DNA of 32,000 nucleotides from Phycisphaera mikurensis NBRC 102666 (GCF_000284115.1 NC_017081.1:30001-62000), one strand, 5' to 3'; positions 1 through 19,635 are shown, counted from the first letter of the stretch. Numbers and translations are program-made. Notes: generated by a model from the letters alone, not told the origin.

Positions 1-258
1 GTCGGGGCCCTGCTGTTGGTAGTCCGCGAGCGGGCCCGCATCGAAGACGCCTTCGGGCAGAAGGGCGTTCGCATTGGGCGTGCCCCGTGCCGCCGGGCCC
101 GTTCCACCGTCGGGATCCGCGGCGACCGGCGGGGACGACTCTCTTCGACAGCCAACGGCGGCGGCGGCGGCGCTCGCCGTCGCGAAGACAAGCAGCCGGC
201 GGCGGTTGACGCGGTCGGCCTCCGTCGGAGCGGTCGGAGCGGTCGGATCAGTGCCCAT
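1..258 (-). CDS. Exported (Tat-like/lipoprotein signal) protein, N-terminal fragment; the gene runs off the left edge
   Basis: Absent from the ORF track because there is no stop inside the window. ATG at 258-256 on the minus strand is preceded by AAGGAGGT 7 nt upstream. Translation is MGTDPTAPTAPTEADRVNRRRLLVFATASAAAAAVGCRRESS..., giving an RRR n-region, an Ala-rich h-region and a VGC lipobox-like Cys. GC3 is high in this frame. The ORF overlaps the end of the upstream gene by 11 nt. Confidence 0.6.
   Translation of the reverse strand, partial: MGTDPTAPTAPTEADRVNRRRLLVFATASAAAAAVGCRRESSPPVAADPDGGTGPAARGTPNANALLPEGVFDAGPLADYQQQGPD
224..250. repeat. 9-bp tandem repeat GTCGGAGCG x2 plus degenerate third unit GTCGGATCA
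   Basis: Read directly: 224-232 and 233-241 are identical, and 242-250 matches 7/9. It encodes PTAPTAPT in the n-region of the 1-258 ORF. Confidence 0.6.
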
Positions 259-910
259 GCTCGTGACCTCCTTCCTCGGTTGCGTCGGCCGCGGGGACGG
301 AGGCCTTCCAGCCCTCGTCGGGCGCGGCCGCCCCTTCCGCGTGCCCGCCGCCCCCGCCGTGGCCACCGCCGGAGCCGAAGCTCAACATCCCGCCGATGTG
401 GCCCTGGGCGACCAGGAACACGACGAACACGGCGCCCGCCGCGATGTAGGCCGGCCGGGCGCCGACCCGCGCGTCCGGCTGCGTCTCGCGGCGACGCTCC
501 CGCCAGCGCCACAACGCGAGCCCGATCACCAGCACGGCCAGCGAGGTGCCCAGCCACTTGTGCACGAGCATCGGGTCTCCGTGGCCGCCCATCTCGTCGA
601 GCCAGAGCCAGCCGGCCAGCGCGGTGAAGGGCGTGACGACCGCCGCGAGCACGGTCATCCACCAGCCCGCCGAAGAGAGCGAGGCCCGGCGGTTGAAGCG
701 GCCGGCGCTGTCGAAGAACACCGCGGCGGGGATGAGCCCTGCGGTCATGTTCACGAGGATCGGGTGCAGCGGCGGCGGCTGGAGGAGCAGCCGGAGCACG
801 TCGGCGGCGTCGGCGAGGGAGAGCGGGAGCATGGGGTCGATCCGAGGATGCGGAGGGAAAGCCCCGCCGCCGCGGTCAGCGGCGACGGAGCCGGGGAAGC
901 GGACAGGCAT
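248..910 (-). CDS. DUF2231-like integral membrane protein with Gly/His-rich C-terminal tail
   Basis: ORF track, 220 aa. It has an LHPILVNMTAGLIPAAVFFD motif and about 4 hydrophobic helices, as in DUF2231-type proteins. The tail is GSGGGHGGGGGHAEG...EEGGHEHGH. The start ATG overlaps the upstream stop (TGATG at 910). Confidence 0.65.
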   Translation of the reverse strand: MPVRFPGSVAADRGGGAFPPHPRIDPMLPLSLADAADVLRLLLQPPPLHPILVNMTAGLIPAAVFFDSAGRFNRRASLSSAGWWMTVLAAVVTPFTALAGWLWLDEMGGHGDPMLVHKWLGTSLAVLVIGLALWRWRERRRETQPDARVGARPAYIAAGAVFVVFLVAQGHIGGMLSFGSGGGHGGGGGHAEGAAAPDEGWKASVPAADATEEGGHEHGH

Positions 911-1395
911 CAGTGCGAGTGAGCCCCGTGCCCGTGGTCTTCCTCTTTCGTGTCGCCACCCGTCATGTTGTGGTGGTTGTCGTCGAGCGTGACCTCCTTG
1001 AAGCCGCCGTCCTCCTGCTGGACGTAGAGGTGCTTGACGTCGAAGGACTGCATGCCCTCGTGGGCGACGCCCTCGACCTTGATGGTCTGCGCCGCGTACT
1101 CAGCGAGCGGCACCGGGTTGGTGAGCAGGAAGAGCAGGTCGCCGGTGTCACCGCCCTCGGGCAGGATCCCGGCGGGGATGCCAGTGGCCAAGCAGGTGCT
1201 GGCGCACTCGGCGTGGCCCTCGCCCTTGGCGCCGCCGTCGCTGGCGACGAAGCAGGCGGTGTCGATGAGTTCACCCGTCAAGGTGGTCATCTCGCCCTCG
1301 CCCCCCGCGTGCCCACCCTCGTGGTCACCGGCGGCAGTGGCGAAGGGTGCGGCGGCCAGCAGGGCGGCGAGAGCGGCACAGGAGGAACGGTGCAT
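910..1395 (-). CDS. Secreted His-rich, Cys-containing putative periplasmic metal-binding protein (family unknown)
   Basis: ORF track, 161 aa. The signal peptide is AALAALLAAAPFATAAG. The mature N-terminus reads DHEGGHAGGEGE and the C-terminus reads DDNHHNMTGGDTKEEDHGHGAHSH. The core contains DTAC and HAECASTC. AAGGA lies 7 nt upstream of the ATG. Confidence 0.65.
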   Translation of the reverse strand: MHRSSCAALAALLAAAPFATAAGDHEGGHAGGEGEMTTLTGELIDTACFVASDGGAKGEGHAECASTCLATGIPAGILPEGGDTGDLLFLLTNPVPLAEYAAQTIKVEGVAHEGMQSFDVKHLYVQQEDGGFKEVTLDDNHHNMTGGDTKEEDHGHGAHSH

Positions 1396-1414
1396 GGTGA
1401 AATCCTTCAGAAAC

Positions 1415-1427
1415 GGGGGGGGGGGGG
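1415..1427. repeat. Homopolymeric G13 (C13 on the coding strand) tract in the intergenic region
   Basis: Counted directly: g1415-g1427. It lies 19 nt upstream of the ATG at 1395 on the minus strand and just upstream of its AAGGA ribosome-binding site. Confidence 0.9.
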
Positions 1428-1488
1428 AAGCTCGCGGGAGCGCGAGCGGAGAGAGAGCGACCGGCGAACGCCGTCGGACGCGACCAAA

Positions 1489-1992
1489 TCAGTCCTTCGG
1501 GATGAAGGTCATGCCGCACTCGGTGCTGTTGCCCGGCACGCCGGTCGCCGCCTCGGGATGCATCACGCGGACCCACGCCCCGGTCGCTTCGAGAGCAGTC
1601 GGCGGACCAGCCGCGGCGGCTTCTTCCGGGGCAGAAGCTTCCGCGCTGGCCGTGCCCGGATTGCTTTGCTCGTCGTGCTGCATCCCGGCCATGCCCGCCA
1701 TCCCGTCGTGGTCGCCGGACAAGGGCGCCGGCTCGCCCGGGAGCCGGACGAGTGGGGCGGCTCCGCCGGGGCTGGCATCGGTGTGTGCGACCCCGGACCG
1801 GCCCGCGTCGCCGGGCGCGGGGTCGGCGCGCTTCACGGCCGGCGTGTCGGTCCGCGGCGGCAGCGGGGCCACCGCGGCGTCCGGGTTGCCAACTTGGCTC
1901 CCGGCGATGGCGGAGTCCTCAGGAAGTCTGTTTGCGCAGCCGGGCAGCAGGAGCGCGACCGTCAGCGCGGCCGCGGAGAAAGAGCGGGCCAT
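1489..1992 (-). CDS. Lipoprotein with Met/His motif and a degenerate MHPE...CGM metal-binding ribbon at the C-terminus
   Basis: ORF track, 167 aa. The lipobox is ALLLPGC. It carries an HDGMAGMAGMQHD motif. The C-terminus VMHPEAATGVPGNSTECGMTFIPKD aligns without gaps to the CopA N-terminal CPMHPE...[12 protein letters not shown] motif in this window. Confidence 0.65.
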   Translation of the reverse strand: MARSFSAAALTVALLLPGCANRLPEDSAIAGSQVGNPDAAVAPLPPRTDTPAVKRADPAPGDAGRSGVAHTDASPGGAAPLVRLPGEPAPLSGDHDGMAGMAGMQHDEQSNPGTASAEASAPEEAAAAGPPTALEATGAWVRVMHPEAATGVPGNSTECGMTFIPKD

Positions 1993-2078
1993 TGGAAACG
2001 GACCTCAAGTGAGAAGAGGGCGGAACAGGAGGCACCACGCTTCGGCCATCAGGGGCCAAGAGCGGGCATGGGCAGACA

Positions 2079-2096
2079 CCACCGCGTGTGCGGCGG
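2079..2096 (-). terminator. GC-rich stem-loop just after the small Cys/His gene (possible attenuator or partial terminator)
   Basis: The minus-strand RNA reads CCGCCGC-ACAC-GCGGUGG, a 7-bp stem with one G-U pair, followed by UGUCUG. It starts 9 nt after the TAG stop at 2105. Confidence 0.3.
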
Positions 2097-2104
2097 GCCC
2101 GGGC

Positions 2105-2533
2105 CTACAGGTTCAGCGCGCACCGCTGGCGCAGGAGCGACCCGCCGGCTCCCGGCGGACGCTGGTTCTCGTTGAGGTCTTCCGTGACCACGACCTCGGC
2201 CGGCGGCTCTTCCAGCAAACGGTCGAGAAGTGACGCAACCACCGGTGGCAGCGGAAGCGGGAGCGGCACCGCGACGGTCGGTGCCGCCGGTGCCTGCAAG
2301 ACTCCCGCCACGCCCGAGCAGTCGCAGGTGCCCCCGTGGTCGTGGGGCTGCGGCGTGTCACCCGGCTGATTCGATGTGCCCGGCTGCTTCGAGTTGCCGT
2401 GCCCGTGGCACGATTCCTGAGCAACGGGTTTCGCCACGTCCATCGACGCCGCCACCGTTGGGCAGGCGCAGAAGAGCGCCGTGTACAGCACCATAAAGGC
2501 GGTAAGGCTCGGGATGAGACGGCGTCCGCTCAC
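2105..2533 (-). CDS. Small signal-anchored Cys/His-rich protein (paralog of 12315-12707)
   Basis: This is the frame of ORF 2105-2626. I place the start at GTG 2533, giving MSGRRLIPSLTAFMVLYTALF..., because that parallels the N-terminus MSLFRRLPTLLVTL of the paralog and keeps the CsoR-type palindrome non-coding. It contains SCHGHG and TCDCSG motifs, a Pro-rich segment and a C-terminal ...CALNL. Confidence 0.55.
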   Translation of the reverse strand: MSGRRLIPSLTAFMVLYTALFCACPTVAASMDVAKPVAQESCHGHGNSKQPGTSNQPGDTPQPHDHGGTCDCSGVAGVLQAPAAPTVAVPLPLPLPPVVASLLDRLLEEPPAEVVVTEDLNENQRPPGAGGSLLRQRCALNL

Positions 2534-2540
2534 GGAACCA

Positions 2541-2569
2541 ACGCTAGCCAGACGCGAACACACCGTCAA
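2541..2569 (-). promoter_or_regulatory. Candidate sigma70-type promoter TTGACG-N17-TAGCGT
   Basis: On the minus strand TTGACG is at 2569-2564 and TAGCGT at 2546-2541. The -35 lies 4 nt downstream of the palindrome. The -10 ends 7 nt before GTG 2533 and no SD is visible, which suggests a leaderless mRNA. Confidence 0.3.
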
Positions 2570-2573
2570 GATG

Positions 2574-2588
2574 TACCCCCATGGGGTA
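2574..2588. promoter_or_regulatory. CsoR-type operator candidate TACCCCCATGGGGTA
   Basis: The arms TACCCC/GGGGTA are a perfect inverted repeat with a 3-nt spacer. The 15-mer is identical to the one at 5601-5615. It is intergenic, 40 nt upstream of GTG 2533. Confidence 0.6.
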
Positions 2589-2650
2589 GCTGCAGGATTG
2601 CGTAGCCCTCCAAGGGAGTCCTCCACCAGCGGCGTGGGCGAGCGGATCGG

Positions 2651-2779
2651 TCAAGCGTTCAGCAGGACCATCGTGAGCAGGACGGTGACAACGAACAACA
2701 CGCCGGCAACCGCCTTCCAAGGAAAGCGTCGGCGGGGGAGAGCGTCGGGGTCTTCGGGTGGTCGGCAGCAATCGCTCAC
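2651..2779 (-). CDS. Unannotated 42-aa tail-anchored micropeptide MSDCCRPPEDPDALPRRRFPWKAVAGVLFVVTVLLTMVLLNA
   Basis: Hand-translated, and too short for the ORF track. GTG 2779-2777 overlaps the permease stop as GTGA. It has an N-terminal DCC, a basic RRR stretch, then a single hydrophobic helix. GC3 is about 74%. Confidence 0.4.
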   Translation of the reverse strand: MSDCCRPPEDPDALPRRRFPWKAVAGVLFVVTVLLTMVLLNA

Positions 2780-4131
2780 GAAGAGCCTCTCTCGCTTCTG
2801 TTGGGCGGGTTCTTCCGCAGGAACAGCCACTCGCCGCCGAAGATCAGGGCGAAGCCCACGGCGGAGAGGACCAGCACGAGCGGGTCGCTGCCGCTCTTCA
2901 CCCAGACCAGAGCGCCGAGCACGGCGGCGTCGAGGATCAGGGCGGTGATCAGGACCCAGGCGCTCGCCTTGAGCTCCTCCCGCAGGTGGCGGAGCAGGCC
3001 CCAGTGGATCGCCATGTCCATGACGAGGTAGAAGATCGCACCCATCGTGGCGATGCGGCCCAGGTCCAGGAACACGGTCAGCACGCCCGCGATCACCGCC
3101 GTGTAAACCAGTGTGTGTGTCTGTCGGTCCCCGGGGAGGCCGAACGAGCGGAACGGCACGAGGTCCATCTGCGTGAGCATCGCGAGCATGCGGGACACCG
3201 CGAACATGGACGCGACGATGCCCGAGGCGGTGGCGATGATCGCGATCGCCACGGTGAACCAGACGCCGTAACGACCCACAGCTGGCTCGGCGGCCCGGGC
3301 CAGGGCGTAATCGCGGGCGTCCACCACCTCCTCGGCCGTCAGGCCCGAGGCCACGGCGAAGGCGACCAGGGTGTAGAGCACGGTGCAGACGGCCAGCGTG
3401 ATGACGATGGCACGCCCGACGTTCTTCTTGGGGTCCTTCAGCTCGTCGCCGTCGTTGGTAATGGTCGTGAAGCCCTTATACGCGAGGATCCCCAGCGCCG
3501 TGGCGGCCAGGAATCCGCCGGCGGTGGAGGCGACACCGCCACCGCCGGCGCCCGGCGGCGGGGCGAGGAAGTCCGTCTCGAACGACAGCCCCGACACCCA
3601 CAGCCCGACGATCGCGAAGACCGCGATGCCGCCGACCTTGGCGGCCGCGGCGACCTTCTGGAAGCCGCCGATGGCCGCGTTCCCGGCGAGGTTGAGGAGA
3701 AAAGAGAAGGCCACCAGGCCGACGCCCAACGCCGGAATGAGCCACCCCGCCCCCTCGGACCGGTCGGCGTCTTTGCCACCGAACAGCTGCATCACATAGG
3801 TGCCGAAGGTCCGCGCGACGAGGCTCTCGTTGATGACCATCGAGAAGTACATCAGCAGCGACATGCCCGCCGTCACGACCCCCGGCCCGTAGCAGCGCTT
3901 CAGGATCATCGCGATCCCGCCCGCCGAAGGCGAGTCGTTGCAGACCTTTACGTAGGAGTACGCGCTGAAGGCCGCGACCAGCGCGGCGGACAGGAAGGCG
4001 AAGGGGAACAGCCCGCTGCTCTGCTCGGCGAGCTGACCGGTGAGGGCGAAGACACCGGCGCCGATCATGACGCCGGTGCCCATGGCCACGGCGCCGAACA
4101 GGGACAGGGAGTTCTTCTCGTAATCAGGCAT
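2776..4131 (-). CDS. APC-superfamily amino acid (or polyamine) permease
   Basis: ORF track 2776-4140. The likely ATG is at 4131 (MPDYEKNSLSLFGAVAMGTGVMIGAGVFALTG...). It has about 12 hydrophobic segments and the GxG(I/V)F N-terminal signature typical of APC permeases. It starts 5 nt after the stop of the upstream gene. Confidence 0.85.
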   Translation of the reverse strand: MPDYEKNSLSLFGAVAMGTGVMIGAGVFALTGQLAEQSSGLFPFAFLSAALVAAFSAYSYVKVCNDSPSAGGIAMILKRCYGPGVVTAGMSLLMYFSMVINESLVARTFGTYVMQLFGGKDADRSEGAGWLIPALGVGLVAFSFLLNLAGNAAIGGFQKVAAAAKVGGIAVFAIVGLWVSGLSFETDFLAPPPGAGGGGVASTAGGFLAATALGILAYKGFTTITNDGDELKDPKKNVGRAIVITLAVCTVLYTLVAFAVASGLTAEEVVDARDYALARAAEPAVGRYGVWFTVAIAIIATASGIVASMFAVSRMLAMLTQMDLVPFRSFGLPGDRQTHTLVYTAVIAGVLTVFLDLGRIATMGAIFYLVMDMAIHWGLLRHLREELKASAWVLITALILDAAVLGALVWVKSGSDPLVLVLSAVGFALIFGGEWLFLRKNPPNRSERGSS

Positions 4132-4136
4132 GGGTC

Positions 4137-5141
4137 TCAATCGCTCCGGTGAACAGGTGTTTGGTTCGGCGACAAGGCCTCACCGGTGGGCGAGGCCGCC
4201 GCGAAGCCCATCTGGATGCGGAGCGCCTCCGCGAGGGCGTAGGCGCCGGACGCTGGAGCGGCTGCACCCAGCAGCCGCGGCCCGAGGTCGCTCACGAGGT
4301 GTGCGGCCGCGTCCCGACACGCTCCGGCCGAAGCGGAAGCCCGCCAGCTCTCCCCGGCGTCGCCTCCCTGGCCCCGGCCGGCGTCGACCAGCTCCAACGC
4401 CAGCAGGACCACCGCGGACATGCCATAGAACGCTTGCCGGCGCCGGAAGTGGTGCAGCAGCGGGTGCGTGTGGTGCGACTCATGGAGCTCGCAGATGCCG
4501 CCCAGGAGCCGGCCGAGCACCCGCGAGGCCTCGGGCGTGTCGGCCCGGCCGCCCGGCAGCCGGTCGAGCAGCTCGGCGCCGCGGCCCGTCCGGCCCGAGA
4601 GGTGCCAGCACTCCATCGCGAAGGCGTCACGCCGCCGCAGCGCCCCGTACACGCCCAGCAGGTAGGTGATCGCGAGGGTGAAGACCGCGAAGCCCAGCGC
4701 TGATTCGGCCACCGCGAGCAGACGCGGCCCCGCCCCCGCAGGCGTCAGCGGACCCAGCCCGAGCGTCGTGAACGCGTACGCGCTGAAGTAGAGCGCTTCG
4801 AGGAAGCCTCCCGTCACGGCGTCGCCGCCGCTCCTGAACCCGCCCGAAGCCATGGCGGGCCAGAAGCACAGGGCGAAACCGACGATGGGCAGCAGCACCC
4901 AGAGCACGAGTCCCAGCACGATGAACGCCGGCCCGAAGCCCTTGAGCAGCCACCGCCGGAACGGGCCTGCGGCGGCCTGCTGCGACCCGCGGACGATCCG
5001 CCAGAGCACCCGCAGCAGCCAGCCGCTGTACAGGCCGGTGGCGCCGCTGCGACCGAGCCCGACCTTGAGCAGGTCGGCAACCCCCACCGCGGTGAGCGGG
5101 ACGCCGAGGAGGGGCGCAATCCAGGGGGTGGAGGCTGTCAA
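4137..5141 (-). CDS. Two-TM pore-loop (K+ channel-like) protein with non-canonical TTLGLG filter and a Cys/His-rich cytoplasmic domain
   Basis: ORF track, 334 aa, with a TTG start. The segment YFSAYAFTTLGLGPL between two hydrophobic helices resembles a K-channel pore helix and filter, but with L in place of Y/F. The C-terminal half contains ICELHESHHTHPLLHH (4449-4493). Confidence 0.55.
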   Translation of the reverse strand: MTASTPWIAPLLGVPLTAVGVADLLKVGLGRSGATGLYSGWLLRVLWRIVRGSQQAAAGPFRRWLLKGFGPAFIVLGLVLWVLLPIVGFALCFWPAMASGGFRSGGDAVTGGFLEALYFSAYAFTTLGLGPLTPAGAGPRLLAVAESALGFAVFTLAITYLLGVYGALRRRDAFAMECWHLSGRTGRGAELLDRLPGGRADTPEASRVLGRLLGGICELHESHHTHPLLHHFRRRQAFYGMSAVVLLALELVDAGRGQGGDAGESWRASASAGACRDAAAHLVSDLGPRLLGAAAPASGAYALAEALRIQMGFAAASPTGEALSPNQTPVHRSD

Positions 5142-5181
5142 GGCGTGACGAACAGGTGCGGCTGCTCCCGCACCCTAGCCT

Positions 5182-5196
5182 TACCCCAGGGGGGTA
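5182..5196. promoter_or_regulatory. CsoR-type operator candidate TACCCCAGGGGGGTA
   Basis: It has the same arms TACCCC/GGGGTA and the same 3-nt spacer length as the other two sites. It lies between the csoR stop (5213) and the channel gene, 40 nt upstream of TTG 5141. Confidence 0.5.
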
Positions 5197-5212: not shown

Positions 5213-5557
5213 TCAGCTCCTGCCCTGCCGGTGATAAACCTCCAGCAGCTCCTCGATCGTCCGCTCCAGTGAGTCGGGGTCATTCGCCATCGCCTCCCGC
5301 ACGCAGTGGCGGAGGTGGTGGCGGAGCGTCTCCTTCGCCACCGCCCGCAGGCCGGCGTTGGCGGCGGACACCTGCGTCAAGATGTCCACGCAGTAGCGGT
5401 CGTCCTCGATCATCTGCTGCAGCCCCCGCACCTGTCCTTCGATGCGGCGGAGCCGGCGGCGAACGGCGGCCTTGTGGCCGTCGTCGACGTGGGACGTCTT
5501 CGCTGGCTTCTTGGATCCGCCGGTGCCCGGCCCGGGTTGTGACTTCTTTCTCGCCAT
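5213..5557 (-). CDS. csoR: CsoR-family Cu(I)-sensing transcriptional repressor
   Basis: ORF track, 114 aa. It contains RLRRIEGQVRGLQQMIEDDRYCVDILTQ...LRHHLRHC. The ligand pattern is Cys, His at +25 and Cys at +29, matching the C-H-C Cu(I) site of CsoR rather than RcnR or FrmR patterns. Confidence 0.9.
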   Translation of the reverse strand: MARKKSQPGPGTGGSKKPAKTSHVDDGHKAAVRRRLRRIEGQVRGLQQMIEDDRYCVDILTQVSAANAGLRAVAKETLRHHLRHCVREAMANDPDSLERTIEELLEVYHRQGRS

Positions 5558-5600: not shown

Positions 5601-5615
5601 TACCCCCATGGGGTA
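5601..5615. promoter_or_regulatory. CsoR-type operator TACCCCCATGGGGTA in the csoR/csp divergent region
   Basis: Perfect arms with a 3-nt spacer. It lies 43 nt from the csoR ATG and 55 nt from the csp ATG. It resembles known GC-tract CsoR operators. Confidence 0.7.
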
Positions 5616-6103: not shown

Positions 6104-6478
6104 GTGCCCGTCGGCTGCACCGACACTCGGCAGATCATCGACGACGCCTTCGTCGTCGGCAACCCCGCCGAGCCCGACGCCCCGGCCGGGATGATGCCGG
6201 TCGCGCCGCGCTGGCTCACGATCGCGCATACCGGCCGCGGACCCACGGAGACCGCGGCCGTGGATCCCGAACCGGTGCTCCCGATGATGGACGCCGCCTG
6301 GAAGGTCCGTGAGTTGCCCCCCGGCCTGGAGGAGGCAGACACCGGCGAGGTGAAGGACGCATCCGAGCGGGCGCCGCTGTTCCGGCAGGACGCACCGGAG
6401 CCGGGGATGAAGAACCTGCCTCGCAGCGGCTTCACCGGGACAAACCAGCAGGCCCCCGAAGCGGAGGCCGAACGATGA
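6104..6478 (+). CDS. Small acidic Pro-rich protein, possibly a lipoprotein with a non-canonical start further upstream
   Basis: ORF track, with a GTG start. GC3 is high. The stop overlaps the next gene's ATG (ATGA). Upstream, the same open frame encodes IIRPAALALFLLVPVGC with no ATG/GTG/TTG codon ahead of it (see findings). Confidence 0.45.
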   Translation: MPVGCTDTRQIIDDAFVVGNPAEPDAPAGMMPVAPRWLTIAHTGRGPTETAAVDPEPVLPMMDAAWKVRELPPGLEEADTGEVKDASERAPLFRQDAPEPGMKNLPRSGFTGTNQQAPEAEAER

Positions 6479-8211
6479 AGCAGTTGCTCTTCACCACCAC
6501 GGCGCTTGCCTTGGCTGCCAGCGCCTGCACCTCCGCCCCGCGAGACGCGGGCTTCGGCGACGTCGCCGACACCGCGAAGACCCGCGGCGGCGTCTCGCCC
6601 GCCTGGACCCGCACCCCCGACGCCGACCGCGAAGCGGACCGGATCGTCCGCGAGACGCTCGCGCAGCCGCTCACCGCCGAGGCGGTGGTCCGCGTGGCGA
6701 TCCTGCACAACCGCGACCTGCAGGCGGTGTACGAGGAGCTGGGCATCTCCCGGGGCCAGCTCATCCAGGCCGGCCTCCCGGACAATCCGGTCTTCGTGTG
6801 GGACACCTGGTTCTTCAACGCCGGCACCAGCTTCGAGGGCGCCCTGTTCCAGAACCTGATCAGCGTCTTCACGATCCCGCTGCGGCGCGAGATCCAAGGC
6901 GAGCAGTTCGAAGCCGCGAAGCGGCGGGTCGCCGCCGCCGTCCTGGCCACCATCGGCGACGCCCGGCGGGCCTACGTCACCTTCCTCACCCAGCGGCAAC
7001 TCGTGGACATGGAGCGGGCGGTGGTGACCGCCACCGAGGCCTCGTACCTGACCGCCGAGCGCCTCCGCCAGGCCGGCAACGTCCCGCAGCTGACGGTGCT
7101 GCGTGAACGGGCGCTGTACGAGGAATCCAAGCTCCAGCTGAACGTGGCGCTCGAGCAGCTCGCGGCCGCCCGGGAGGCGCTCAACCAGGTGATGAGCCTG
7201 TCCGGCTCGATGACCACTTGGACCGTGCCCGCGGGCTGGTCGCCGGTGGGCCCGCCCGCCGCGACGGTGGCGGCGGGGGAGGCGAGGCCGGGCGTCACCG
7301 GGCTCGAGCCCGGCGACACGACCGTTCTTGAGCTCGACAAGGTGGCCAAAGTCCCCGGTCCGACGCCGACGCCGATGGCGGACACCCCGCTGGACGCCGC
7401 GCGGAAGCTCGCGGGCCCGCCGCGGGCGGACAACCTCTCCACGCCGCCGGGGAGCGGGACGGCCGATGCCGCGTCGCCGGCCCCGGATCCGGCAATGCCG
7501 GATCTCTCCTGGCTGGGCGCGCTCTCCGAGCCCGGCGGCGCCGGGCTGCCCGACCCGCTGGTTCCCTCGCAGGAGCGGTCCGAGGCGGTGGAGCGCCGGA
7601 TCGTCGAACGCAGCCTCGTGCTCTCCGGCCAGCGGCACCTCATCGAGGCCCAGGCCACCCGGCTCAAGCTCCGCAACATCCTGGCCCTGTTCCCCTTCCT
7701 CAACGTGGGCATCACCACCGAGAAGGGCGCCGGGTCGAGCGAGTTCGGGCTCGGGCCGTCGGTCGCCACGCCGATCCCGGTCTTCGACCTCGGCCAGGGC
7801 ATCCGCCCGGAGGAAGCCTCGCGGCTCCGGCAGCGGCTGGAGACCTTCCTCTCCACCGCCACCTCCCTCCGCTCGCTGGCTCGGACGGCGGAGGTCCGGC
7901 TGCAGACCACCCGCGAGCGGGCCGCGTACCTCCGCGACGTGGTGCTCCCGCTGCACGCCTCGCTCGTGGCCGAGAGCCAGCTGCAGTACAACGCGATGGC
8001 CCTCACGCCCTTCGACCTGCTGCTCGCCAAGCGGCAGCAGATCGCCGCCGGCCGCGCCTACCTGCTCACCCTACGGGCGTACTGGCTGGCCTACGCCGAC
8101 CTTCAGCAGCTGCTCGACGGCTCGGTCCCGCCGATGCCCGGCGCGCCCGGGCTGTTCGTCGGCCCGGTGCTCGCTCCCATGCCGACCGTGCCCGCCATGG
8201 GCATGAACTGA
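6475..8211 (+). CDS. TolC/CzcC-family outer membrane efflux lipoprotein with a long Pro/Ala-rich insert
   Basis: ORF track, 578 aa. The signal and lipobox are LALAASAC. The segment AVVRVAILHNRDLQAVYEELGISRGQLIQAGLPDNP is typical of the OEP family. GGAGG lies 7 nt upstream of the ATG. A low-complexity insert of about 110 aa spans 7237-7569. Confidence 0.8.
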   Translation: MKQLLFTTTALALAASACTSAPRDAGFGDVADTAKTRGGVSPAWTRTPDADREADRIVRETLAQPLTAEAVVRVAILHNRDLQAVYEELGISRGQLIQAGLPDNPVFVWDTWFFNAGTSFEGALFQNLISVFTIPLRREIQGEQFEAAKRRVAAAVLATIGDARRAYVTFLTQRQLVDMERAVVTATEASYLTAERLRQAGNVPQLTVLRERALYEESKLQLNVALEQLAAAREALNQVMSLSGSMTTWTVPAGWSPVGPPAATVAAGEARPGVTGLEPGDTTVLELDKVAKVPGPTPTPMADTPLDAARKLAGPPRADNLSTPPGSGTADAASPAPDPAMPDLSWLGALSEPGGAGLPDPLVPSQERSEAVERRIVERSLVLSGQRHLIEAQATRLKLRNILALFPFLNVGITTEKGAGSSEFGLGPSVATPIPVFDLGQGIRPEEASRLRQRLETFLSTATSLRSLARTAEVRLQTTRERAAYLRDVVLPLHASLVAESQLQYNAMALTPFDLLLAKRQQIAAGRAYLLTLRAYWLAYADLQQLLDGSVPPMPGAPGLFVGPVLAPMPTVPAMGMN

Positions 8212-15639: not shown

Positions 15640-15808
15640 ATCCAACTGCAAACGGAGGCTTCCAACGCGCGAGCGTTGTGGCCGCTGTTCAACGGGCACA
15701 ACGCCAGCGCTACCCGCACTCCCGCCGCTGAAGAACCTGCCTCCGCCGCAGGCGGACTTGCCCCGCTGCGTCTTCCCCCTCCCCCAACTCAAACAACACC
15801 GGTCCCCT

Positions 15809-18800
15809 GTGCTTGAACGCATCCTCCGATTCTCGATCGACCAGCGCTGGCTGGTCGTCCTCCTCACCGCCGCGGCGGCGCTCCTGGGCGTGTACTCGCT
15901 CACGCAGCTGCCCATCGACGCCGTCCCGGACATCACCAACAACCAGGTCCAGATCAACACCGAGTACGAGGCCCTGGGCCCCGAGCAGGTGGAGAAGCAG
16001 ATCACCTTCCCGGTCGAGACGGCGCTGGCCGGCATCGAAGGCCTCGATTACACGCGCTCGATCAGCCGCAACGGCTTCAGCCAGGTGACCGCGGTCTTCA
16101 CCGACGCCACCGACGTGTACTTCGCCCGCTCCCAGGTGCTCGAGCGCCTGGTTGGCCTGGGCGAGACGCTGCCGCCGGGGGCCGAGCCCTCGATGGGCGC
16201 AATCAGCACCGGGCTCGGCGAGGTCTTCATGTACGCGGTCGAGTTCACGAACCCCGGCGGGGTGGGCGCCGAAATCGTGGAAGATGGCCCCGGGTGGCGC
16301 TCCGACGGCACCTACGTCACTCCCGAAGATGAGGTGCTGCGAACGCCGGTCGAGAAGGCCGCCTACCTCCGCACCCTGCAGGAGTACACGATCTCCCCGC
16401 AGCTGCGGCAGGTGGCCAACGTCGCCGGCGTCGACGCGATCGGCGGCTACGAGAAGCAGTACGGCGTCGAGCCCGACCCGATGAAGCTGATGGCCCACGG
16501 GCTGTCCTTCGCGGACCTGCTCGACGCGCTCGAGGCCGGCAACGTCGCGCAGGGCGCGAAGTACATCGAGACCGCCGGCGAGGCGCTGCAGGTCCGCGCC
16601 AGCGGCCTGCTCACCGGCGTGGAGGACATCGCCGGCATCGTCATTGGTCAGCACGACGGCGTGCCCGTCCGCGTCCGCGACGTCGCCGCGGTCGGCGTCA
16701 GCCGTGAGGTCCGCTACGGCTCGGCCAGCCTCAACGGCGAGGAGGCGGTGATCGGCACCGCGCTCATGCTCATCGGCGGCAACAGCCGGCAGGTCGCCGC
16801 CGACGTGGGGGCGAAGCTCGGGGAGATCGGGCAGACGCTGCCGCCGGGCATCTCCATCCGCACCGTGCTCGACCGCACCGGCCTGGTCGACAAGACGATC
16901 GCCACCGTCGAGCACAACCTGTTCTTCGGCGCGATCCTGGTGATCGTCGTGCTCTTCGTGCTGCTGGGCAACCTCCGCGCGGCGCTGATCACCGCGCTGG
17001 CGATCCCGCTGTCGATGCTGCTCACCGCCACCGGCATGGTGCAGGCGGGCATCAGCGCCAACCTCCTGTCGCTGGGCGCGATCGACTTCGGGATCATCAT
17101 CGACGGCAGCGTCATCATCGTCGAGAACTGCGTCCGCCGGCTCGCCGAGCGGCAGCACGAACTCGGCCGGAAGCTCACGCTTCAGGAGCGGCTGGAGACG
17201 ACCTTCCTTGCGGCGAAGCAGGTGCGGACGGCCACCGCCTTCGGCGAGGCGATCATCATCACGGTCTACCTGCCGGTGCTCTTCTTGACCGGCGTGGAGG
17301 GCAAGATGTTCACGCCGATGGCGGCGACGGTGATCTTCGCGCTCGTGGGGGCCTTCGTCCTCTCGCTGACCTTCGTGCCCGCGGCGGTGGCGATCGTCAT
17401 GCGGGGCAAGGTCTCCGAGAAGGACGTCTTCGTGCTCCGCTGGGCGCGGGCCGCCTACGAGCCGGTGGTGCGGGCCGCGGTGCGGGCCCGGGTCGCCGTG
17501 GTGGCGGCCGCGGTGCTCGCCTTCGTCGGTTCGCTGCTGCTGTTCACGCAACTCGGCCAGGAGTTCGTGCCGCAGCTGGACGAGGGCGACGTCGCCATGC
17601 ACGCGATGCGGATCCCTGCCACGGCGCTCTCCAGCTCGCAGGAGAACCAGGGGATGCTCGAGAAGAAGATCGCCGCGGTGCCCGAGGTCGCCTACGTCTT
17701 CAGCAAGACCGGCACGGCCGAGCTGGCGGCGGACCCGATGGCGCCCAGCGTCAGCGACAACTTCCTGATCCTGGCGGACGAGGAGGACTGGCGGCCGGTG
17801 CCCGAGCTGCTCGCCGAGGCGAAACGCTTCGAGGCGATGCTCCCGGAGGACCCGCACGCGGGCGAGGACGAGCACGGCCACGGCGGCCACGGGGAGGAAC
17901 ACGGCCACGGAGAGGAACAAGCTGGCAACTTCTCCGAGCACAAGAACGCCCTGATGCGGCTGCTGCGCGCGGTGGTCGCCACCGTGCCCGGCAACAACTA
18001 CGAGTTCACGCAGCCCATCGAGATGCGCTTCAACGAGTTGATCTCCGGCGTGCGGAGCGACCTGGCGATCAAGGTCTTCGGCGACGACTTCGAGGTGATG
18101 CTCCCGGCCGCCAACGCGATCGCCGCGGTGGTCGCTCAGGTGCCCGGCGCCTCGGACGTGAAGGTCGAGCAGACCGAGGGCCTTCCGGTGCTGGACGTCT
18201 CGATCGACCGCCAGGCAATTTCGCGGCTGGGCCTCACGCTCAAGGAGGTGCAGGACCTGGTCGCCGCCGCTGTGGGCGGGAAAGAGGCGGGCCTGATCTT
18301 CCAGGGCGACCGCCGCTTCGACCTGATCGTCCGCCTGCCCGAGCGGCTCCGCGCCGACGTGCAGGCGCTCCGCGACCTGCCGGTCCCGCTGCCCCCCCGG
18401 GAAGCGAGCGGCGGAGCGATGGCCCGCAACGCGGACTTTCGATTTGCCCCGGCTCCCTTCGTCCCCCTCGGCGACATCGCCGACCTTTTCGTGACCGAGG
18501 GCCTCAACCAGGTCAGCCGCGAGAACGGCAAGCGTCGCATCGTCGTGCAGGCTAACGTCCGCGGCCGCGACATCGGCGGCTTCGTCGACGAGGTGCGGGC
18601 CCGCATTGCGGAGACCGCACCGCCCCCACCGGGCACGTACCTCACCTACGGCGGCCAGTTCGAGAACCTCGAGCGGGCCCGGCAGCGGCTGCTGATCGTC
18701 GTCCCGGTCTGCTTCCTCCTGATCTTCGGCCTGCTCTACGCGACCTTCGGGAACGCGAAGGACGCGGTGATGGTCTTCGTGTGCGTGCCGCTGGCGCTCA

Positions 18801-19198
18801 CCGGCGGCATCCTCGCGCTCTGGCTCCGCGGCATGCCCTTTTCGATCTCCGCCGCCGTGGGCTTCATCGCCCTCTCGGGCGTGGCCGTGCTCAACGGCTT
18901 GGTGATGGTCACCTTCATCAACGAGCGGCTCCAGGAGGGCGACCCGCTGGAGGAGGCGATCATCGGCGGCAGCCTCGTCCGGCTGCGGCCCGTGCTGATG
19001 ACCGCGCTGGTCGCGGCGCTGGGCTTCGTCCCCATGGCAATCGCGACCGGAGCGGGGGCCGAGGTGCAGAAGCCCCTGGCCACCGTCGTCATCGGCGGCA
19101 TCGCCAGCGCCACGCTGCTCACGCTGGTGGTGCTTCCGGCCGTGTACCGGCTGTGGCACCGGCCCGGCCGCAAGCACGAGCTGGAGCCGGCGGTGTGA
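15809..19198 (+). CDS. czcA: Heavy-metal efflux RND pump, CzcA (HME, divalent-cation type)
   Basis: ORF 15758-19198, with the start reset to GTG 15809 (MLERILRFSIDQRWLVV, the canonical CzcA N-terminus). The TM4 motif GAIDFGIIIDGSVIIVEN is the DFG-D-EN signature of divalent HME pumps. It carries a His-rich insert at 17846-17917. Confidence 0.95.
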   Translation: MLERILRFSIDQRWLVVLLTAAAALLGVYSLTQLPIDAVPDITNNQVQINTEYEALGPEQVEKQITFPVETALAGIEGLDYTRSISRNGFSQVTAVFTDATDVYFARSQVLERLVGLGETLPPGAEPSMGAISTGLGEVFMYAVEFTNPGGVGAEIVEDGPGWRSDGTYVTPEDEVLRTPVEKAAYLRTLQEYTISPQLRQVANVAGVDAIGGYEKQYGVEPDPMKLMAHGLSFADLLDALEAGNVAQGAKYIETAGEALQVRASGLLTGVEDIAGIVIGQHDGVPVRVRDVAAVGVSREVRYGSASLNGEEAVIGTALMLIGGNSRQVAADVGAKLGEIGQTLPPGISIRTVLDRTGLVDKTIATVEHNLFFGAILVIVVLFVLLGNLRAALITALAIPLSMLLTATGMVQAGISANLLSLGAIDFGIIIDGSVIIVENCVRRLAERQHELGRKLTLQERLETTFLAAKQVRTATAFGEAIIITVYLPVLFLTGVEGKMFTPMAATVIFALVGAFVLSLTFVPAAVAIVMRGKVSEKDVFVLRWARAAYEPVVRAAVRARVAVVAAAVLAFVGSLLLFTQLGQEFVPQLDEGDVAMHAMRIPATALSSSQENQGMLEKKIAAVPEVAYVFSKTGTAELAADPMAPSVSDNFLILADEEDWRPVPELLAEAKRFEAMLPEDPHAGEDEHGHGGHGEEHGHGEEQAGNFSEHKNALMRLLRAVVATVPGNNYEFTQPIEMRFNELISGVRSDLAIKVFGDDFEVMLPAANAIAAVVAQVPGASDVKVEQTEGLPVLDVSIDRQAISRLGLTLKEVQDLVAAAVGGKEAGLIFQGDRRFDLIVRLPERLRADVQALRDLPVPLPPREASGGAMARNADFRFAPAPFVPLGDIADLFVTEGLNQVSRENGKRRIVVQANVRGRDIGGFVDEVRARIAETAPPPPGTYLTYGGQFENLERARQRLLIVVPVCFLLIFGLLYATFGNAKDAVMVFVCVPLALTGGILALWLRGMPFSISAAVGFIALSGVAVLNGLVMVTFINERLQEGDPLEEAIIGGSLVRLRPVLMTALVAALGFVPMAIATGAGAEVQKPLATVVIGGIASATLLTLVVLPAVYRLWHRPGRKHELEPAV

Positions 19199-19280
19199 CG
19201 CCGCACCCCTGCCGCGCACGCGGCTGCCTGAGTGCGTCTCAACGCGCTCGTTGATCTTGAACCCACATGAAAGGAACCTG

Positions 19281-19511
19281 ATGAAGCTTTTTCTCACCAC
19301 CGCCCTGACGCTCGGCCTCTTCGCCCTCACCGGCTGCGGCGAGACCCCCGCCACCGCCCCGGACCCGCTCGCGGGCGAGGCGCCGGCCATCGACCTCCAC
19401 GCGGAGGGCGACGGGCACGGCCACGGCAGCGATGAACACGACCACGAGGGCGACGCTCACGGCCACGGCGAGGAGGCTGCGGGCGACGACCACTCCGACC
19501 ACGAGCACTGA
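19281..19511 (+). CDS. 76-aa His/Asp/Glu-rich mini-lipoprotein (putative periplasmic metal buffer or chaperone)
   Basis: This lies within ORF 19251-19511. ATG 19281 is preceded by AAAGGAA. The lipobox is MKLFLTTALTLGLFALTGC. The mature part ends DLHAEGDGHGHGSDEHDHEGDAHGHGEEAAGDDHSDHEH. Confidence 0.65.
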   Translation: MKLFLTTALTLGLFALTGCGETPATAPDPLAGEAPAIDLHAEGDGHGHGSDEHDHEGDAHGHGEEAAGDDHSDHEH

Positions 19512-19526
19512 TCCGTGCCGCGCGTC

Positions 19527-19605
19527 CCGCCGCCCACGCGCCGCCCCGGGTGGGCGTCCGCGGCGGTCACCACCGGATTCGACCGCCGGGAGCGCCCGGC
19601 GGGTC
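19527..19605 (+). terminator. Two GC-rich stem-loops between the mini-lipoprotein gene and the CDF gene
   Basis: The first has CCGCCGC (19527-19533) pairing with GCGGCGG (19560-19566), with an inner CCCAC/GTGGG pair. The second is GACCGCCGGG-AGCG-CCCGGCGGGTC (19581-19605, one bulge). No U-tract follows, so function is uncertain. Confidence 0.25.
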
Positions 19606-19635
19606 CGGCTTCCACGCCTCGAACGAGACCCCACG

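What the first reader, a model, noticed from the sequence alone, without database searches (positions are those of the whole stretch)
2651..5196. Copper-repressor-gated operon of a K-channel-like protein, an APC permease and a CC micropeptide
Seen: the minus strand from 5141 to 2651 encodes three tightly packed genes (a 5-nt gap, then a GTGA overlap). (i) A 334-aa two-TM pore-loop protein has the filter TTLGLG (4752-4769) instead of T[VI]G[YF]G, and its soluble C-terminal half carries the cluster ICELHESHHTHPLLHH (4449-4493). (ii) A 12-TM APC-family permease follows. (iii) A 42-aa tail-anchored peptide starting MSDCC follows that. The unit sits directly downstream of csoR, behind a CsoR-type palindrome. 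Established: pore-loop channels and APC permeases are not part of the canonical copper regulons (CopA/CopZ, CueO, Cus, Pco, Csp). Inference: this is a copper-derepressed ion/solute flux module. It may be a metal-gated channel, with the His cluster as sensor, coupled to amino-acid, histidine or thiol transport. I regard this as the best candidate for an undescribed system in the window.
Basis: partly seen in the sequence, partly recalled or inferred. Interest (0 to 1): 0.7.

Follow-up and report, generated by a model that had tools for sequence, protein, structure and literature searches.

The report
Copper-island permease and channel pair
In a copper-resistance island of the planctomycete Phycisphaera mikurensis, a gene pair behind a copper-repressor binding site encodes a potassium-channel-like protein and an amino-acid-type permease. 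Relatives of the permease sit next to copper pumps in many bacterial phyla, which points to an overlooked helper of copper tolerance, while the proposed third 'micropeptide' gene is probably not real.

Summary
The sequence features are real. On the minus strand lie csoR (5213-5557), a 334-aa pore-loop protein (4137-5141) and an APC permease (2776-4131). Three perfect CsoR-type operators (TAC-N9-GTA) lie at 5601-5615, 5182-5196 and 2574-2588. The source is Phycisphaera mikurensis, inside a large metal-resistance island that carries a conjugation gene.

The new point is comparative. The permease belongs to a tightly conserved clade (55-77% identity across many phyla). In 80 genome loci, 57 have copA within 10 kb and about 23 have it directly adjacent on the same strand. 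E. coli YbaT, a copper-induced permease between copA and cueR, is a 30%-identical precedent.

Pore-loop channel genes recur beside this permease: 22 of 80 loci, 11 directly adjacent. These are an unrelated 'mini' type. The csoR/channel/permease trio appears in three arrangements within Phycisphaerae.

The His cluster is mostly lineage-specific and sits on a motif that also occurs in family members outside copper loci. The 42-codon ORF has no counterpart elsewhere and low GC3.

Best reading: a CsoR-derepressed accessory solute and cation flux module. Substrates and regulation are untested. I rate it a new variant of a known kind, with moderate interest.

The parts
5601..5615 (.). CsoR operator 1 (TACCCCCATGGGGTA), in the divergent region between csoR and the Csp3-like copper-storage gene
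   Evidence: Perfect TAC-N9-GTA palindrome with G-tracts. It matches the Streptomyces CsoR type-2 consensus ATATACCCCTNAGGGGTATAT and the TAC-X9-GTA rule (PMC3902906).
5213..5557 (-). csoR, a Cu(I)-type CsoR-family repressor (114 aa)
   Evidence: Pfam Trns_repr_metal E 1e-28. NCBIfam RicR-like E 3.5e-26, below its cut-off. Best solved match is S. lividans CsoR 4ADZ, E 1.6e-20, with YC..., H-x3-C, RLxR and TQ motifs aligned.
5182..5196 (.). CsoR operator 2 (TACCCCAGGGGGGTA on the + strand), 41 nt upstream of the channel start codon
   Evidence: It is kept in the near-identical contig L003 with one central change that preserves TAC-N9-GTA.
4137..5141 (-). Pore-loop (K-channel-like) membrane protein, 334 aa: TM0, interfacial helix, TM1, pore helix, filter TTLGLGP, TM2, then a helical cytoplasmic domain
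   Evidence: Ion_trans_2 at 31.6 bits against a cut-off of 22.5. AF2 model pLDDT 71.7, with the membrane part at 80-94. Foldseek finds only K-channel pore matches. It is a member of a large uncharacterised full-length family, with 1714 representative clusters at E<=1e-30. pN/pS is 0.23 against the L003 allele. The TTG start is supported by N-terminal homology to the L088 protein.
4752..4769 (-). Selectivity-filter-like segment TTLGLG, followed by Pro instead of the family's Asp
   Evidence: T126, L127, G128 and G130 are invariant in both family alignments. Asp is nearly invariant at position 131 but is Pro here.
4446..4496 (-). His-rich helix-Pro-helix motif ICELHESHHTHPLLHHF in the cytoplasmic domain
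   Evidence: It overlies the family motif ELLESHxSYPxL / QxHLAYPILHxFH. Only H224 and H231 (plus H232 with L088) are shared.
2776..4131 (-). APC-superfamily permease (451 aa, about 12 TM) of a copper-locus-associated clade
   Evidence: AA_permease_2 E 1.4e-25. Closest solved structure is ApcT MJ0609, E 2.7e-28. It is 30% identical to E. coli YbaT. Relatives at 55-77% identity occur in many phyla, with copA within 10 kb in 57 of 80 loci.
2651..2779 (-). 42-codon ORF (GTG start, MSDCC..., hydrophobic tail); probably not a gene
   Evidence: No family hit. GC3 is 0.72. No counterpart in related loci. The gene calls on L001, L002 and L003 omit it. The sequence is present in UniParc, so some pipeline has called it.
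2574..2588 (.). CsoR operator 3 (TACCCCCATGGGGTA); marks the end of this unit and the start of the next CsoR-controlled unit (the DUF2946 gene and those after it)
   Evidence: It is followed 4 nt later by TTGACG-17 nt-TAGCGT. Boxes in the same position just after the permease gene occur in L048, L054, L062, L064 and L071.

Best explanation
This is an accessory transcription unit of a CsoR-controlled copper-resistance island on a mobile element of Phycisphaera mikurensis.

Shown: a Cu(I)-type CsoR gene, three perfect CsoR operators, and a tightly packed channel-then-permease gene pair 41 nt downstream of one operator. The permease belongs to a horizontally spread clade that is a recurrent component of copper loci. 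Pore-loop channel genes are recurrent partners of that clade.

Inferred: when cytoplasmic Cu(I) rises, CsoR leaves its operators and both proteins are made. The permease most likely imports amino acids (Gln/Glu, branched-chain or broad specificity). That would bypass biosynthetic enzymes with copper-sensitive Fe-S clusters, as proposed for E. coli YbaT. The pore-loop protein most likely forms a tetrameric cation (probably K+) pathway that balances charge or the K+ pool during that transport or during electrogenic Cu+ export.

Rough likelihoods: copper-regulated accessory module, 0.8. Permease moves an amino acid or related small solute inward, 0.4. Channel conducts K+ for charge or K+ compensation, 0.25. 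The 42-codon ORF is not part of the system, 0.8.
For: Regulator and operators. The CsoR ligand and DNA-binding motifs are conserved against S. lividans CsoR. Three perfect TAC-N9-GTA boxes are present and match the published consensus (PMC3902906).

Island context. The neighbours are Csp3-like, multicopper oxidase, CopA, Cus-type RND, CDF and TrbI genes.

Permease clade. 591 of 600 candidate stretches in species-representative genomes encode relatives. Among the best 80 loci, CopA lies within 10 kb in 57, MCO in 35, CusB in 28, CsoR in 12 and a CueR-like gene in 21. In total 67 of 80 have at least one of these. About 23 have copA directly adjacent on the same strand. CsoR boxes precede copA-APC(-channel) operons, for example in L039.

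Channel partner. 22 of 80 loci carry an Ion_trans_2 ORF, and 11 of these lie within 300 nt of the permease gene (binomial 1.4e-7 against uniform placement). The trio csoR/channel/APC occurs as csoR>long channel>APC (window), csoR> <long channel APC> (L088; APC 77% identical, channel 33%) and mini-channel>APC>csoR with a 4-nt overlap (L011). The long and mini types share only the pore module (hhalign 97.6% over 59 columns), so the partner has been supplied by two channel families that share only the pore.

The channel gene is under purifying selection (pN/pS 0.23).

Physiological rationale. Cu poisons Fe-S dehydratases and GOGAT. BCAA, Gln/Glu, His and Cys supply rescues growth, and YbaST is Cu-induced and needed for rescue by glutamine (PMC10903455, PMC9628877).
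Against: No expression data exist, and the promoter scan found no sigma-70-like promoter or terminator. Whether operator 2 gates a separate promoter or the unit is read through from csoR is therefore unknown.

The permease is only 30% identical to YbaT. No glutaminase gene accompanies it in any of the 80 loci, so the YbaST logic may not transfer. The substrate is unknown.

Channel filters in partner genes are degenerate (TLGYTQ, TLGMSE, TLGLAQ, TLGLSE), and the window protein has Pro for the conserved Asp. K+ selectivity is therefore doubtful.

Most copper loci with the permease (58 of 80) have no channel, so the channel is not obligatory. The 80 loci are not phylogenetically independent, because several are near-duplicates. 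Other members of the long channel family lie in non-copper contexts.
Confidence: 0.55

Rival explanations
1. The permease handles a copper ligand or a copper complex rather than serving nutrition. It might export or import histidine, cysteine or another thiol, or move a Cu-amino-acid chelate. The pore-loop protein, with its non-canonical filter, would then pass Cu+/Ag+ or another cation rather than K+.
For: The tight and frequent same-strand adjacency to copA, in both orders, suggests direct involvement in copper handling. Filters of the partner channels depart from K+-selective sequences. His and Cys supply modulates copper toxicity in other bacteria (PMC10903455). No catabolic or biosynthetic amino-acid gene is linked.
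Against: The permease shows no obvious Cys/Met/His metal-binding motif among its conserved positions, and its closest characterised relatives are plain amino-acid carriers. No pore-loop channel is known to me to conduct Cu+ (my own knowledge). Nothing here tests the substrate.
Confidence: 0.2
2. One reading: a metal-gated channel whose cytoplasmic His cluster senses copper and opens the pore, coupled to the permease.
For: There are six His in 14 residues in a cytoplasmic helix-Pro-helix just after TM2. Three of them (H224, H231, H232) are shared with the csoR-linked L088 homologue, which is only 33% identical overall.
Against: H224 and H231 belong to a motif common to relatives that sit in non-copper neighbourhoods. 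H221, H225 and H227 are confined to this lineage. The mini-channels partnering the same permease elsewhere lack any C-terminal domain. No Cys or Met typical of Cu(I) sites is conserved. The model's confidence in this region is only about 50-80.
Confidence: 0.1
3. A general ion and acid or osmotic homeostasis pair (K+ with glutamate or glutamine) that travels with metal islands because copper and acid stress co-occur. On this view it is not a copper-specific function.
For: E. coli ybaST is primarily part of glutamine-dependent acid resistance under GadE/W/X control and is only secondarily linked to copper (PMC9628877). K+ and glutamate pools are physiologically coupled (my own knowledge).
Against: CsoR operators lie directly at the unit and at copA-APC operons in other genomes. 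No glutaminase or decarboxylase is linked. The neighbours are overwhelmingly copper-specific.
Confidence: 0.1
4. Passenger genes: the channel and the permease are unrelated housekeeping genes that happen to lie in the island.
For: Other members of the long channel family lie in unrelated neighbourhoods. Thirteen of the 80 permease loci show no copper gene with my queries, although seven of those are short contigs.
Against: The copA linkage in 57 of 80 loci, the channel adjacency in 11 loci and the conserved trio in three arrangements are far beyond chance.
Confidence: 0.05

Closest known systems
E. coli YbaT (b0486), a putative glutamine permease in the copA-glsA(ybaS)-ybaT-cueR locus
   Same: It is an APC-superfamily permease of similar length, alignable end to end with the window permease (30% identity, E 2e-43). 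It is encoded between the copper pump and the copper regulator. ybaST is copper-induced and needed for glutamine-dependent rescue from copper (PMC10903455, PMC9628877). It was already proposed as a member of the copper regulon in 2006 (PMC1526738).
   Different: Identity is only 30%, so it belongs to a different clade. YbaT is paired with a glutaminase, which is absent from all 80 loci here. It is not reported to be directly controlled by CueR, whereas here CsoR boxes flank the unit. It has no channel partner.
ApcT (MJ0609, PDB 3GI9/3GIA) and the archaeal/bacterial transporter group of the APC superfamily (TIGR00909)
   Same: ApcT is the best solved-structure match (E 2.7e-28 over residues 6-375). 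TIGR00909 is the best NCBIfam match. The ~12-TM hydropathy pattern agrees.
   Different: The TIGR00909 score is 100 bits against a cut-off of 557, so the window permease is not a member by the curated threshold. The clade has its own invariant motifs, for example YKGFTTITN. ApcT has no link to metals.
CsoR regulons (M. tuberculosis cso operon, B. subtilis and S. lividans copZA)
   Same: The repressor family, the conserved Cys-His-Cys ligands and the TAC-N9-GTA G-tract operator are the same, as is autoregulation through a box at csoR itself.
   Different: The described targets that I know of are chaperones, P-type ATPases and csoR itself. Here operators also precede a channel/permease unit, a Csp3-like gene and a DUF2946 operon. 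The host is a planctomycete.
Prokaryotic K+ channels of the Ion_trans_2 type (KcsA, KirBac, SthK pore domains)
   Same: The TM-pore helix-filter-TM architecture and the TxGxG filter backbone are shared. Weak but consistent sequence and fold matches go only to K-channel pores.
   Different: There is an extra N-terminal TM. The filter is TLGLGP rather than T[VI]G[YF]GD. The C-terminal helical domain has no match to any solved structure. No PDB sequence match is better than E 0.026.

Membership tests
CsoR (copper-sensing CsoR/RcnR family repressor) | Trns_repr_metal (DUF156) domain | tested here: met
   Pfam PF02583, E 1.1e-28, 99.8 bits against a cut-off of 22.8.
CsoR (copper-sensing CsoR/RcnR family repressor) | Cu(I) ligand set Cys ... 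His-x3-Cys, plus the RLxR and Gln DNA-binding motifs | tested here: met
   The alignment to S. lividans CsoR 4ADZ shows YCVDILTQVSA and HLRHCV aligned to YCIDILTQVSA and HLRHCV, and RLRRIEGQ aligned. The roles of these motifs are taken from PMC3902906.
CsoR (copper-sensing CsoR/RcnR family repressor) | Operator: G-tract pseudopalindrome with 5'-TAC-X9-GTA-3' | tested here: met
   Three perfect sites are present. The consensus is taken from PMC3902906.
CsoR (copper-sensing CsoR/RcnR family repressor) | Copper-dependent release from DNA and derepression | not testable with these tools
   This needs EMSA or ITC and expression data.
K+ channel (pore-loop, Ion_trans_2) | Pore domain profile match above the curated threshold | tested here: met
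   PF07885, 31.6 bits against 22.5.
K+ channel (pore-loop, Ion_trans_2) | TM-pore helix-loop-TM architecture | tested here: met
   AF2 model: H60-98, H113-126, H137-182, with pLDDT 80-94. Foldseek matches go to K-channel pores only, none below E 1e-3.
K+ channel (pore-loop, Ion_trans_2) | Canonical selectivity filter T-[VI]-G-[YF]-G-D | tested here: not met
   The sequence is T-L-G-L-G-P. The family norm is TLGLGD. K+ selectivity therefore cannot be assumed.
K+ channel (pore-loop, Ion_trans_2) | Tetrameric assembly and ion conduction | not testable with these tools
   Only a monomer prediction was possible.
APC superfamily permease | AA_permease / AA_permease_2 profile and about 12 TM | tested here: met
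   PF13520 at 90.5 bits against 27 and PF00324 at 54.5 against 24.6. There are about 12 hydropathy peaks.
YbaT orthologue (E. coli copA-locus permease) | Close sequence relationship to YbaT | tested here: inconclusive
   30% identity over the full length. A 62%-identical relative is named YbaT by UniRef. No reciprocal-best-hit test was possible.
YbaT orthologue (E. coli copA-locus permease) | Operon partner glutaminase (GlsA/YbaS) | tested here: not met
   tblastn with E. coli GlsA found no hit in any of the 80 loci. None of the annotated genes around the unit in the window is a glutaminase.
Archaeal/bacterial transporter group (TIGR00909) | Score above the curated cut-off | tested here: not met
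   100.2 bits against 556.8.
Conserved small membrane protein (the 42-codon ORF) | Conservation of the ORF in related loci, and a coding signature | tested here: not met
   There is no counterpart in the 80 loci or in L088, L089 and L091. GC3 is 0.72 against 0.84-0.93.

The most novel reading that the evidence does not exclude
The permease clade and a pore-loop channel together form an unrecognised, widely transferred two-protein copper-tolerance module. The channel partner would have been recruited at least twice from different channel families: the long type in the Phycisphaera lineage and the mini type in other phyla and in other Phycisphaerales. The job of the module would be a coupled solute/cation flux specific to copper stress, for example a copper-ligand or glutamate/K+ exchange that supports CopA, rather than general nutrition.
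Probability: 0.3. Interest if true: 0.7.

Novelty: new variant of a known kind. Interest (0 to 1): 0.55.

Why it matters
Copper tolerance is usually explained by efflux pumps, oxidases, chaperones and storage proteins. In E. coli there is one isolated hint that an amino-acid permease next to copA matters. The comparison here shows that a distinct, highly conserved permease clade is a frequent member of copper loci across Planctomycetota, Proteobacteria, Verrucomicrobiota, Bacteroidota and even Patescibacteria. It lies immediately beside copA in about 23 of 80 loci and beside a small pore-loop channel in 11. I found no paper that discusses this. If the pair is functional, metabolic or ionic compensation would be a standard, horizontally transferred part of copper resistance. 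It would also give an experimental handle on how copper stress, amino-acid supply and membrane energetics are linked: knock-outs in Marinobacter, Hyphomonas or Alteromonas, which carry the module.

Tried and rejected
- A metagenome scan with a three-sequence channel alignment found nothing.
- The plasmid collection has no match to the window, and the accession I recalled for the P. mikurensis plasmid is not held. A plasmid origin therefore remains a guess, based on the 81-kb contig and the TrbI gene.
- The promoter and terminator scan was uninformative.
- I looked for a counterpart of the micro-ORF after every permease gene and found none.
- I looked for glutaminase genes, to test the YbaST analogy, and found none.
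- I tested whether the subfamily of the csoR-linked long channel (P0286-P0299) is copper-linked. Four contexts were examined and none was.
- I considered the GTG at codon 19 as the true start, as called in L003. I rejected it for the window because residues 8-25 are homologous to the N-terminus of the L088 protein, and D23 is near-invariant with a preceding helix in all relatives. L003 has an in-frame TAG at codon 7, so its copy may be truncated, or the contig may contain an error.
- Literature searches for the permease or a channel in copper islands returned only the E. coli ybaT work and an unremarked 'amino acid permease' in a Psychrobacter figure legend.
Full report
**What is in the sequence.** The window comes from Phycisphaera mikurensis. 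Exact protein look-ups give BAM05400.1 'potassium channel family protein' and BAM05399.1 'APC family permease'. The contig is JACHEL010000016.1, 81 kb. Reading the minus strand, the order is as follows:
- csoR at 5213-5557;
- a 71-nt spacer that contains TACCCCAGGGGGGTA (5182-5196);
- a 334-codon ORF at 4137-5141;
- a 5-nt gap;
- a 451-codon ORF at 2776-4131;
- a 42-codon ORF (2651-2779) whose GTG overlaps the preceding TGA.

Pfam assigns Trns_repr_metal to csoR, Ion_trans_2 to the 334-aa protein and AA_permease_2 to the 451-aa protein, and nothing to the small ORF.

**The repressor and its sites.** The CsoR protein aligns best with the structurally characterised S. lividans CsoR (E 1.6e-20). 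It keeps the Cys, the His-x3-Cys, the RLxR motif and the Gln that the literature ties to Cu(I) and DNA binding (PMC3902906). The window holds three perfect copies of TACCCC-N3-GGGGTA, at 5601-5615, 5182-5196 and 2574-2588. Shuffled sequence gave a mean of 0.56 matches even with two mismatches allowed. These fit the published TAC-X9-GTA G-tract operator and nearly equal the S. lividans copZA1 site. The channel/permease unit is therefore bracketed by CsoR operators. One lies 41 nt upstream of its start. The other lies just downstream of it, in front of the next unit (the DUF2946 gene and those after it). No sigma-70-like promoter or terminator was detectable. I cannot say whether operator 2 controls a promoter of its own or acts on read-through from csoR. 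Either way the inference is copper-dependent derepression, and that step is inferred, not shown.

**Surroundings.** The neighbours are a Csp3-like four-helix-bundle protein, a multicopper oxidase, CopA, two Cus/Czc-type tripartite systems, DUF2231, a CDF, a second P-type ATPase and a TrbI/VirB10 conjugation protein. This is a metal-resistance island on what looks like a conjugative element.

**The permease is the informative gene.** It has thousands of relatives, and the best 120 are 61-100% identical. In one-genome-per-species contigs, 591 of 600 candidate stretches encode a relative. The 80 best (55-65% identical) come from Phycisphaerae, Planctomycetia, Alpha-, Beta- and Gammaproteobacteria, Verrucomicrobiota, Lentisphaeria, Bacteroidota, a Sericytochromatia MAG and a Patescibacteria genome. 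I searched these loci with the island's own proteins. The numbers of loci (of 80) with each gene within 10 kb were:

| Gene | Loci |
|---|---|
| CopA | 57 |
| Multicopper oxidase | 35 |
| CusB | 28 |
| CueR-like MerR regulator | 21 |
| CsoR | 12 |
| At least one of the above | 67 |

. In about 23 loci copA is directly adjacent on the same strand, in either order. Clustering of all ORFs within 3 kb of the permease gave the following loci counts: CopA 49, MCO 23, CopB 18, His-rich DUF2231-like 15, a small Ion_trans_2 protein 15, RND 12, glutaredoxin-MauE fusions 12, DUF305 10 and MerR 8. CsoR-type boxes occur in 14 of these other loci. One example is upstream of a copA-permease-channel operon in Hyphomonas (L039). 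Others lie right after the permease gene, as in the window. High identity across phyla together with copper-island context indicates horizontal spread as part of copper determinants. The loci are not independent samples, because several are near-duplicates, but the effect is far larger than that could explain.

**Known precedent.** E. coli ybaT lies between copA and cueR. ybaS-ybaT were proposed as members of the copper regulon in 2006 (PMC1526738). Later work reported copper induction and a requirement for YbaST in glutamine-dependent rescue from copper (as reviewed in PMC10903455; PMC9628877). The window permease aligns with YbaT end to end at 30% identity, and its closest solved relative is ApcT. 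No glutaminase accompanies the clade in any of the 80 loci, and it scores far below the curated cut-offs of all NCBIfam subfamilies. It therefore works in the same setting as YbaT, but I do not file it as a YbaT orthologue.

**The channel.** The 334-aa protein belongs to a large uncharacterised family of about 330-390-residue proteins. A profile search gave 1714 representative clusters at E<=1e-30, matched over the full length. The architecture is an N-terminal TM, an interfacial helix, TM1, a pore helix, a filter, TM2 and a helical C-terminal domain (AF2 pLDDT 71.7; membrane part 80-94). Solved structures match only over the pore. TLGLGD is the family's normal filter. The window protein has Pro where Asp is near-invariant. 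Members of this family on other contigs sit in unrelated neighbourhoods, so the family as such is not a copper family.

**The pairing recurs.**
- A metagenomic relative (L088; permease 77% identical) has csoR, then a 306-aa long-type channel on the opposite strand (33% identical to the window's, filter TLGLGD), then the permease. A perfect CsoR box lies upstream of csoR and an imperfect one in the channel/permease divergent region.
- A Phycisphaerales MAG (L011) has a 157-aa mini-channel whose stop overlaps the permease start by 4 nt, followed by csoR.
- An HMM of the channel family run over six-frame ORFs of the 80 loci found Ion_trans_2 ORFs of 113-209 residues in 22 loci. Eleven of these lie within 300 nt of the permease gene (eight just downstream, two just upstream, one convergent). 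They come from Opitutaceae, Verrucomicrobiia, Hyphomonas, Aquisalinus, Cellvibrionaceae, a betaproteobacterium, Pseudomonadales and Phycisphaerales. The seven submitted to Pfam all exceed the gathering score.
- With uniform placement in +/-10 kb, 11 of 22 so close has a probability of about 1e-7.
- The mini and long types are alignable only over pore helix-filter-TM2 (59 columns). Two channel families that share only the pore module therefore supply the partner. Since other members of the long family sit outside copper loci, I read this as separate recruitment.
- The filters of the mini proteins vary (TLGLGD/E/S, SLG[VI]GD, TIGFGD, TLGYTQ, TLGMSE, TLGLAQ, TLGLSE), so K+ selectivity is not assured.

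**The His cluster.** In the family alignments the stretch overlies a conserved helix-Pro-helix motif: ELLESHxSYPxL in distant members and QxHLAYPILHxFH in the closer subfamily. H224 and H231 are family features that also occur in non-copper contexts. H232 is shared only with the L088 protein. H221, H225 and H227 are confined to the window lineage. The mini-channels have no such domain. A copper-sensing role is not excluded, because the motif is cytoplasmic. It has no comparative support beyond the HH shared by two csoR-linked proteins.

**The micro-ORF.**
- GC3 is 0.72 against 0.84-0.93 in all neighbouring genes, and overall GC equals that of the adjoining intergenic DNA.
- At this base composition, 42 stop-free codons have a chance of roughly one in three.
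- The gene calls on L001, L002 and L003 omit it. The sequence does exist in UniParc, so some pipeline has called it.
- No similar ORF follows the permease in 80 loci.
- In L088 a convergent gene starts 86 nt after the permease, and in L089 and L091 other genes overlap its stop.
- The only other copy is in DNA that is identical over that stretch.

I treat it as probably non-coding.

**Allelic comparison.** Against the near-identical contig L003, the flanking genes differ at 0.2-0.3% of bases. Channel codons ~7-220 differ at about 8%. Over the gene from codon 19 the differences are 51 of 951 nt, with pS 0.12 and pN/pS 0.23. This indicates purifying selection on the channel, and a recombination tract that covers its membrane domain. 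L003 carries an in-frame TAG at codon 7. The window's long N-terminus is supported by homology to L088 (APxLGVxL...DLL).

**Mechanism and its status.**
- Shown: the parts, the operators, and the comparative linkage of the permease clade to copper genes and to pore-loop channels.
- Inferred (strongly): derepression by Cu(I)-CsoR.
- Inferred (weakly): the permease imports amino acids to bypass copper-poisoned Fe-S enzymes. This is the physiology documented for BCAA, Gln/Glu and His in other bacteria (PMC10903455). The channel would then provide cation flux for charge or K+ balance.
- Rivals: ligand or chelate transport with a non-K+ cation pore; a His-gated metal-sensing channel; general acid or osmotic homeostasis; passenger genes.

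**Verdict.** The components belong to known families, and the E. coli ybaT precedent exists. The breadth of the permease clade in copper loci and its recurrent pairing with pore-loop channels were not described in any paper I could find. I rate it a new variant of a known kind, with an interest score of about 0.55.

Noticed in passing
window ~4482-5122 (channel codons ~7-220) compared with L003: The divergence is mosaic. The channel's membrane domain differs at about 8% of bases from the otherwise 99.7%-identical contig L003 (51 of 951 nt from codon 19; pN/pS 0.23). This suggests a recombination tract confined to this gene. L003 also has an in-frame TAG at codon 7 of the long N-terminus.
   Followed up: partly
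window 5136-5141: The channel's TTG start codon is the first three bases of a perfect TTGACA hexamer. Whether this is a start codon, a -35 element or both is unresolved. Homology of the N-terminal helix favours the start-codon reading.
   Followed up: partly
window 4749-4751 (Pro131): The Asp that follows the G-x-G of the filter is near-invariant in both family alignments but is Pro in this protein and in its 94% relative.
   Followed up: no
window 248-2626, minus strand: Behind CsoR box 3 lies a run of unknown-function genes: a DUF2946 Cys/His-rich protein, a 167-aa protein with a weak HMBD match, a 161-aa His-rich protein and DUF2231. Rieske and sulfotransferase genes follow beyond the window edge. 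This is another candidate CsoR-controlled operon of unknown role.
   Followed up: no
window 15758-23413 and 30558-31886: These stretches hold an RND pump, a CDF, a second P-type ATPase and LpxR, then a TrbI/VirB10-like conjugation gene. The island appears to be on a conjugative element. The source contig is 81 kb. No match was found in the plasmid collection.
   Followed up: partly
window 6475-8211, plus strand: A 578-aa protein lies upstream of the multicopper oxidase. No Pfam family is recorded for it in the precomputed gene table. It has relatives near MCO in L044 and L086 (28-30% identity) and a counterpart of similar length (580 aa) at the same position in L088.
   Followed up: no
L007-L086 (loci of the permease clade): Other poorly characterised families recur within 3 kb of the permease: glutaredoxin- or HMA-MauE fusions, DUF5676, DUF305, isoprenylcysteine-carboxyl-methyltransferase-like proteins and CopB. 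Together they form a shared accessory gene set of copper loci.
   Followed up: partly
L041 (Patescibacteria UBA2163 chromosome): A 58%-identical copy of the permease sits with csoR, copA and two perfect CsoR boxes in a candidate-phyla-radiation genome. This suggests horizontal transfer of the copper module into a reduced genome.
   Followed up: no
L001:16477 (outside the window, about 1.3 kb beyond its left edge): A fourth perfect CsoR box (TACCCCCAGGGGGTA) precedes a 139-aa gene and a YHS-domain gene. The CsoR regulon of this island therefore has at least four operators.
   Followed up: no
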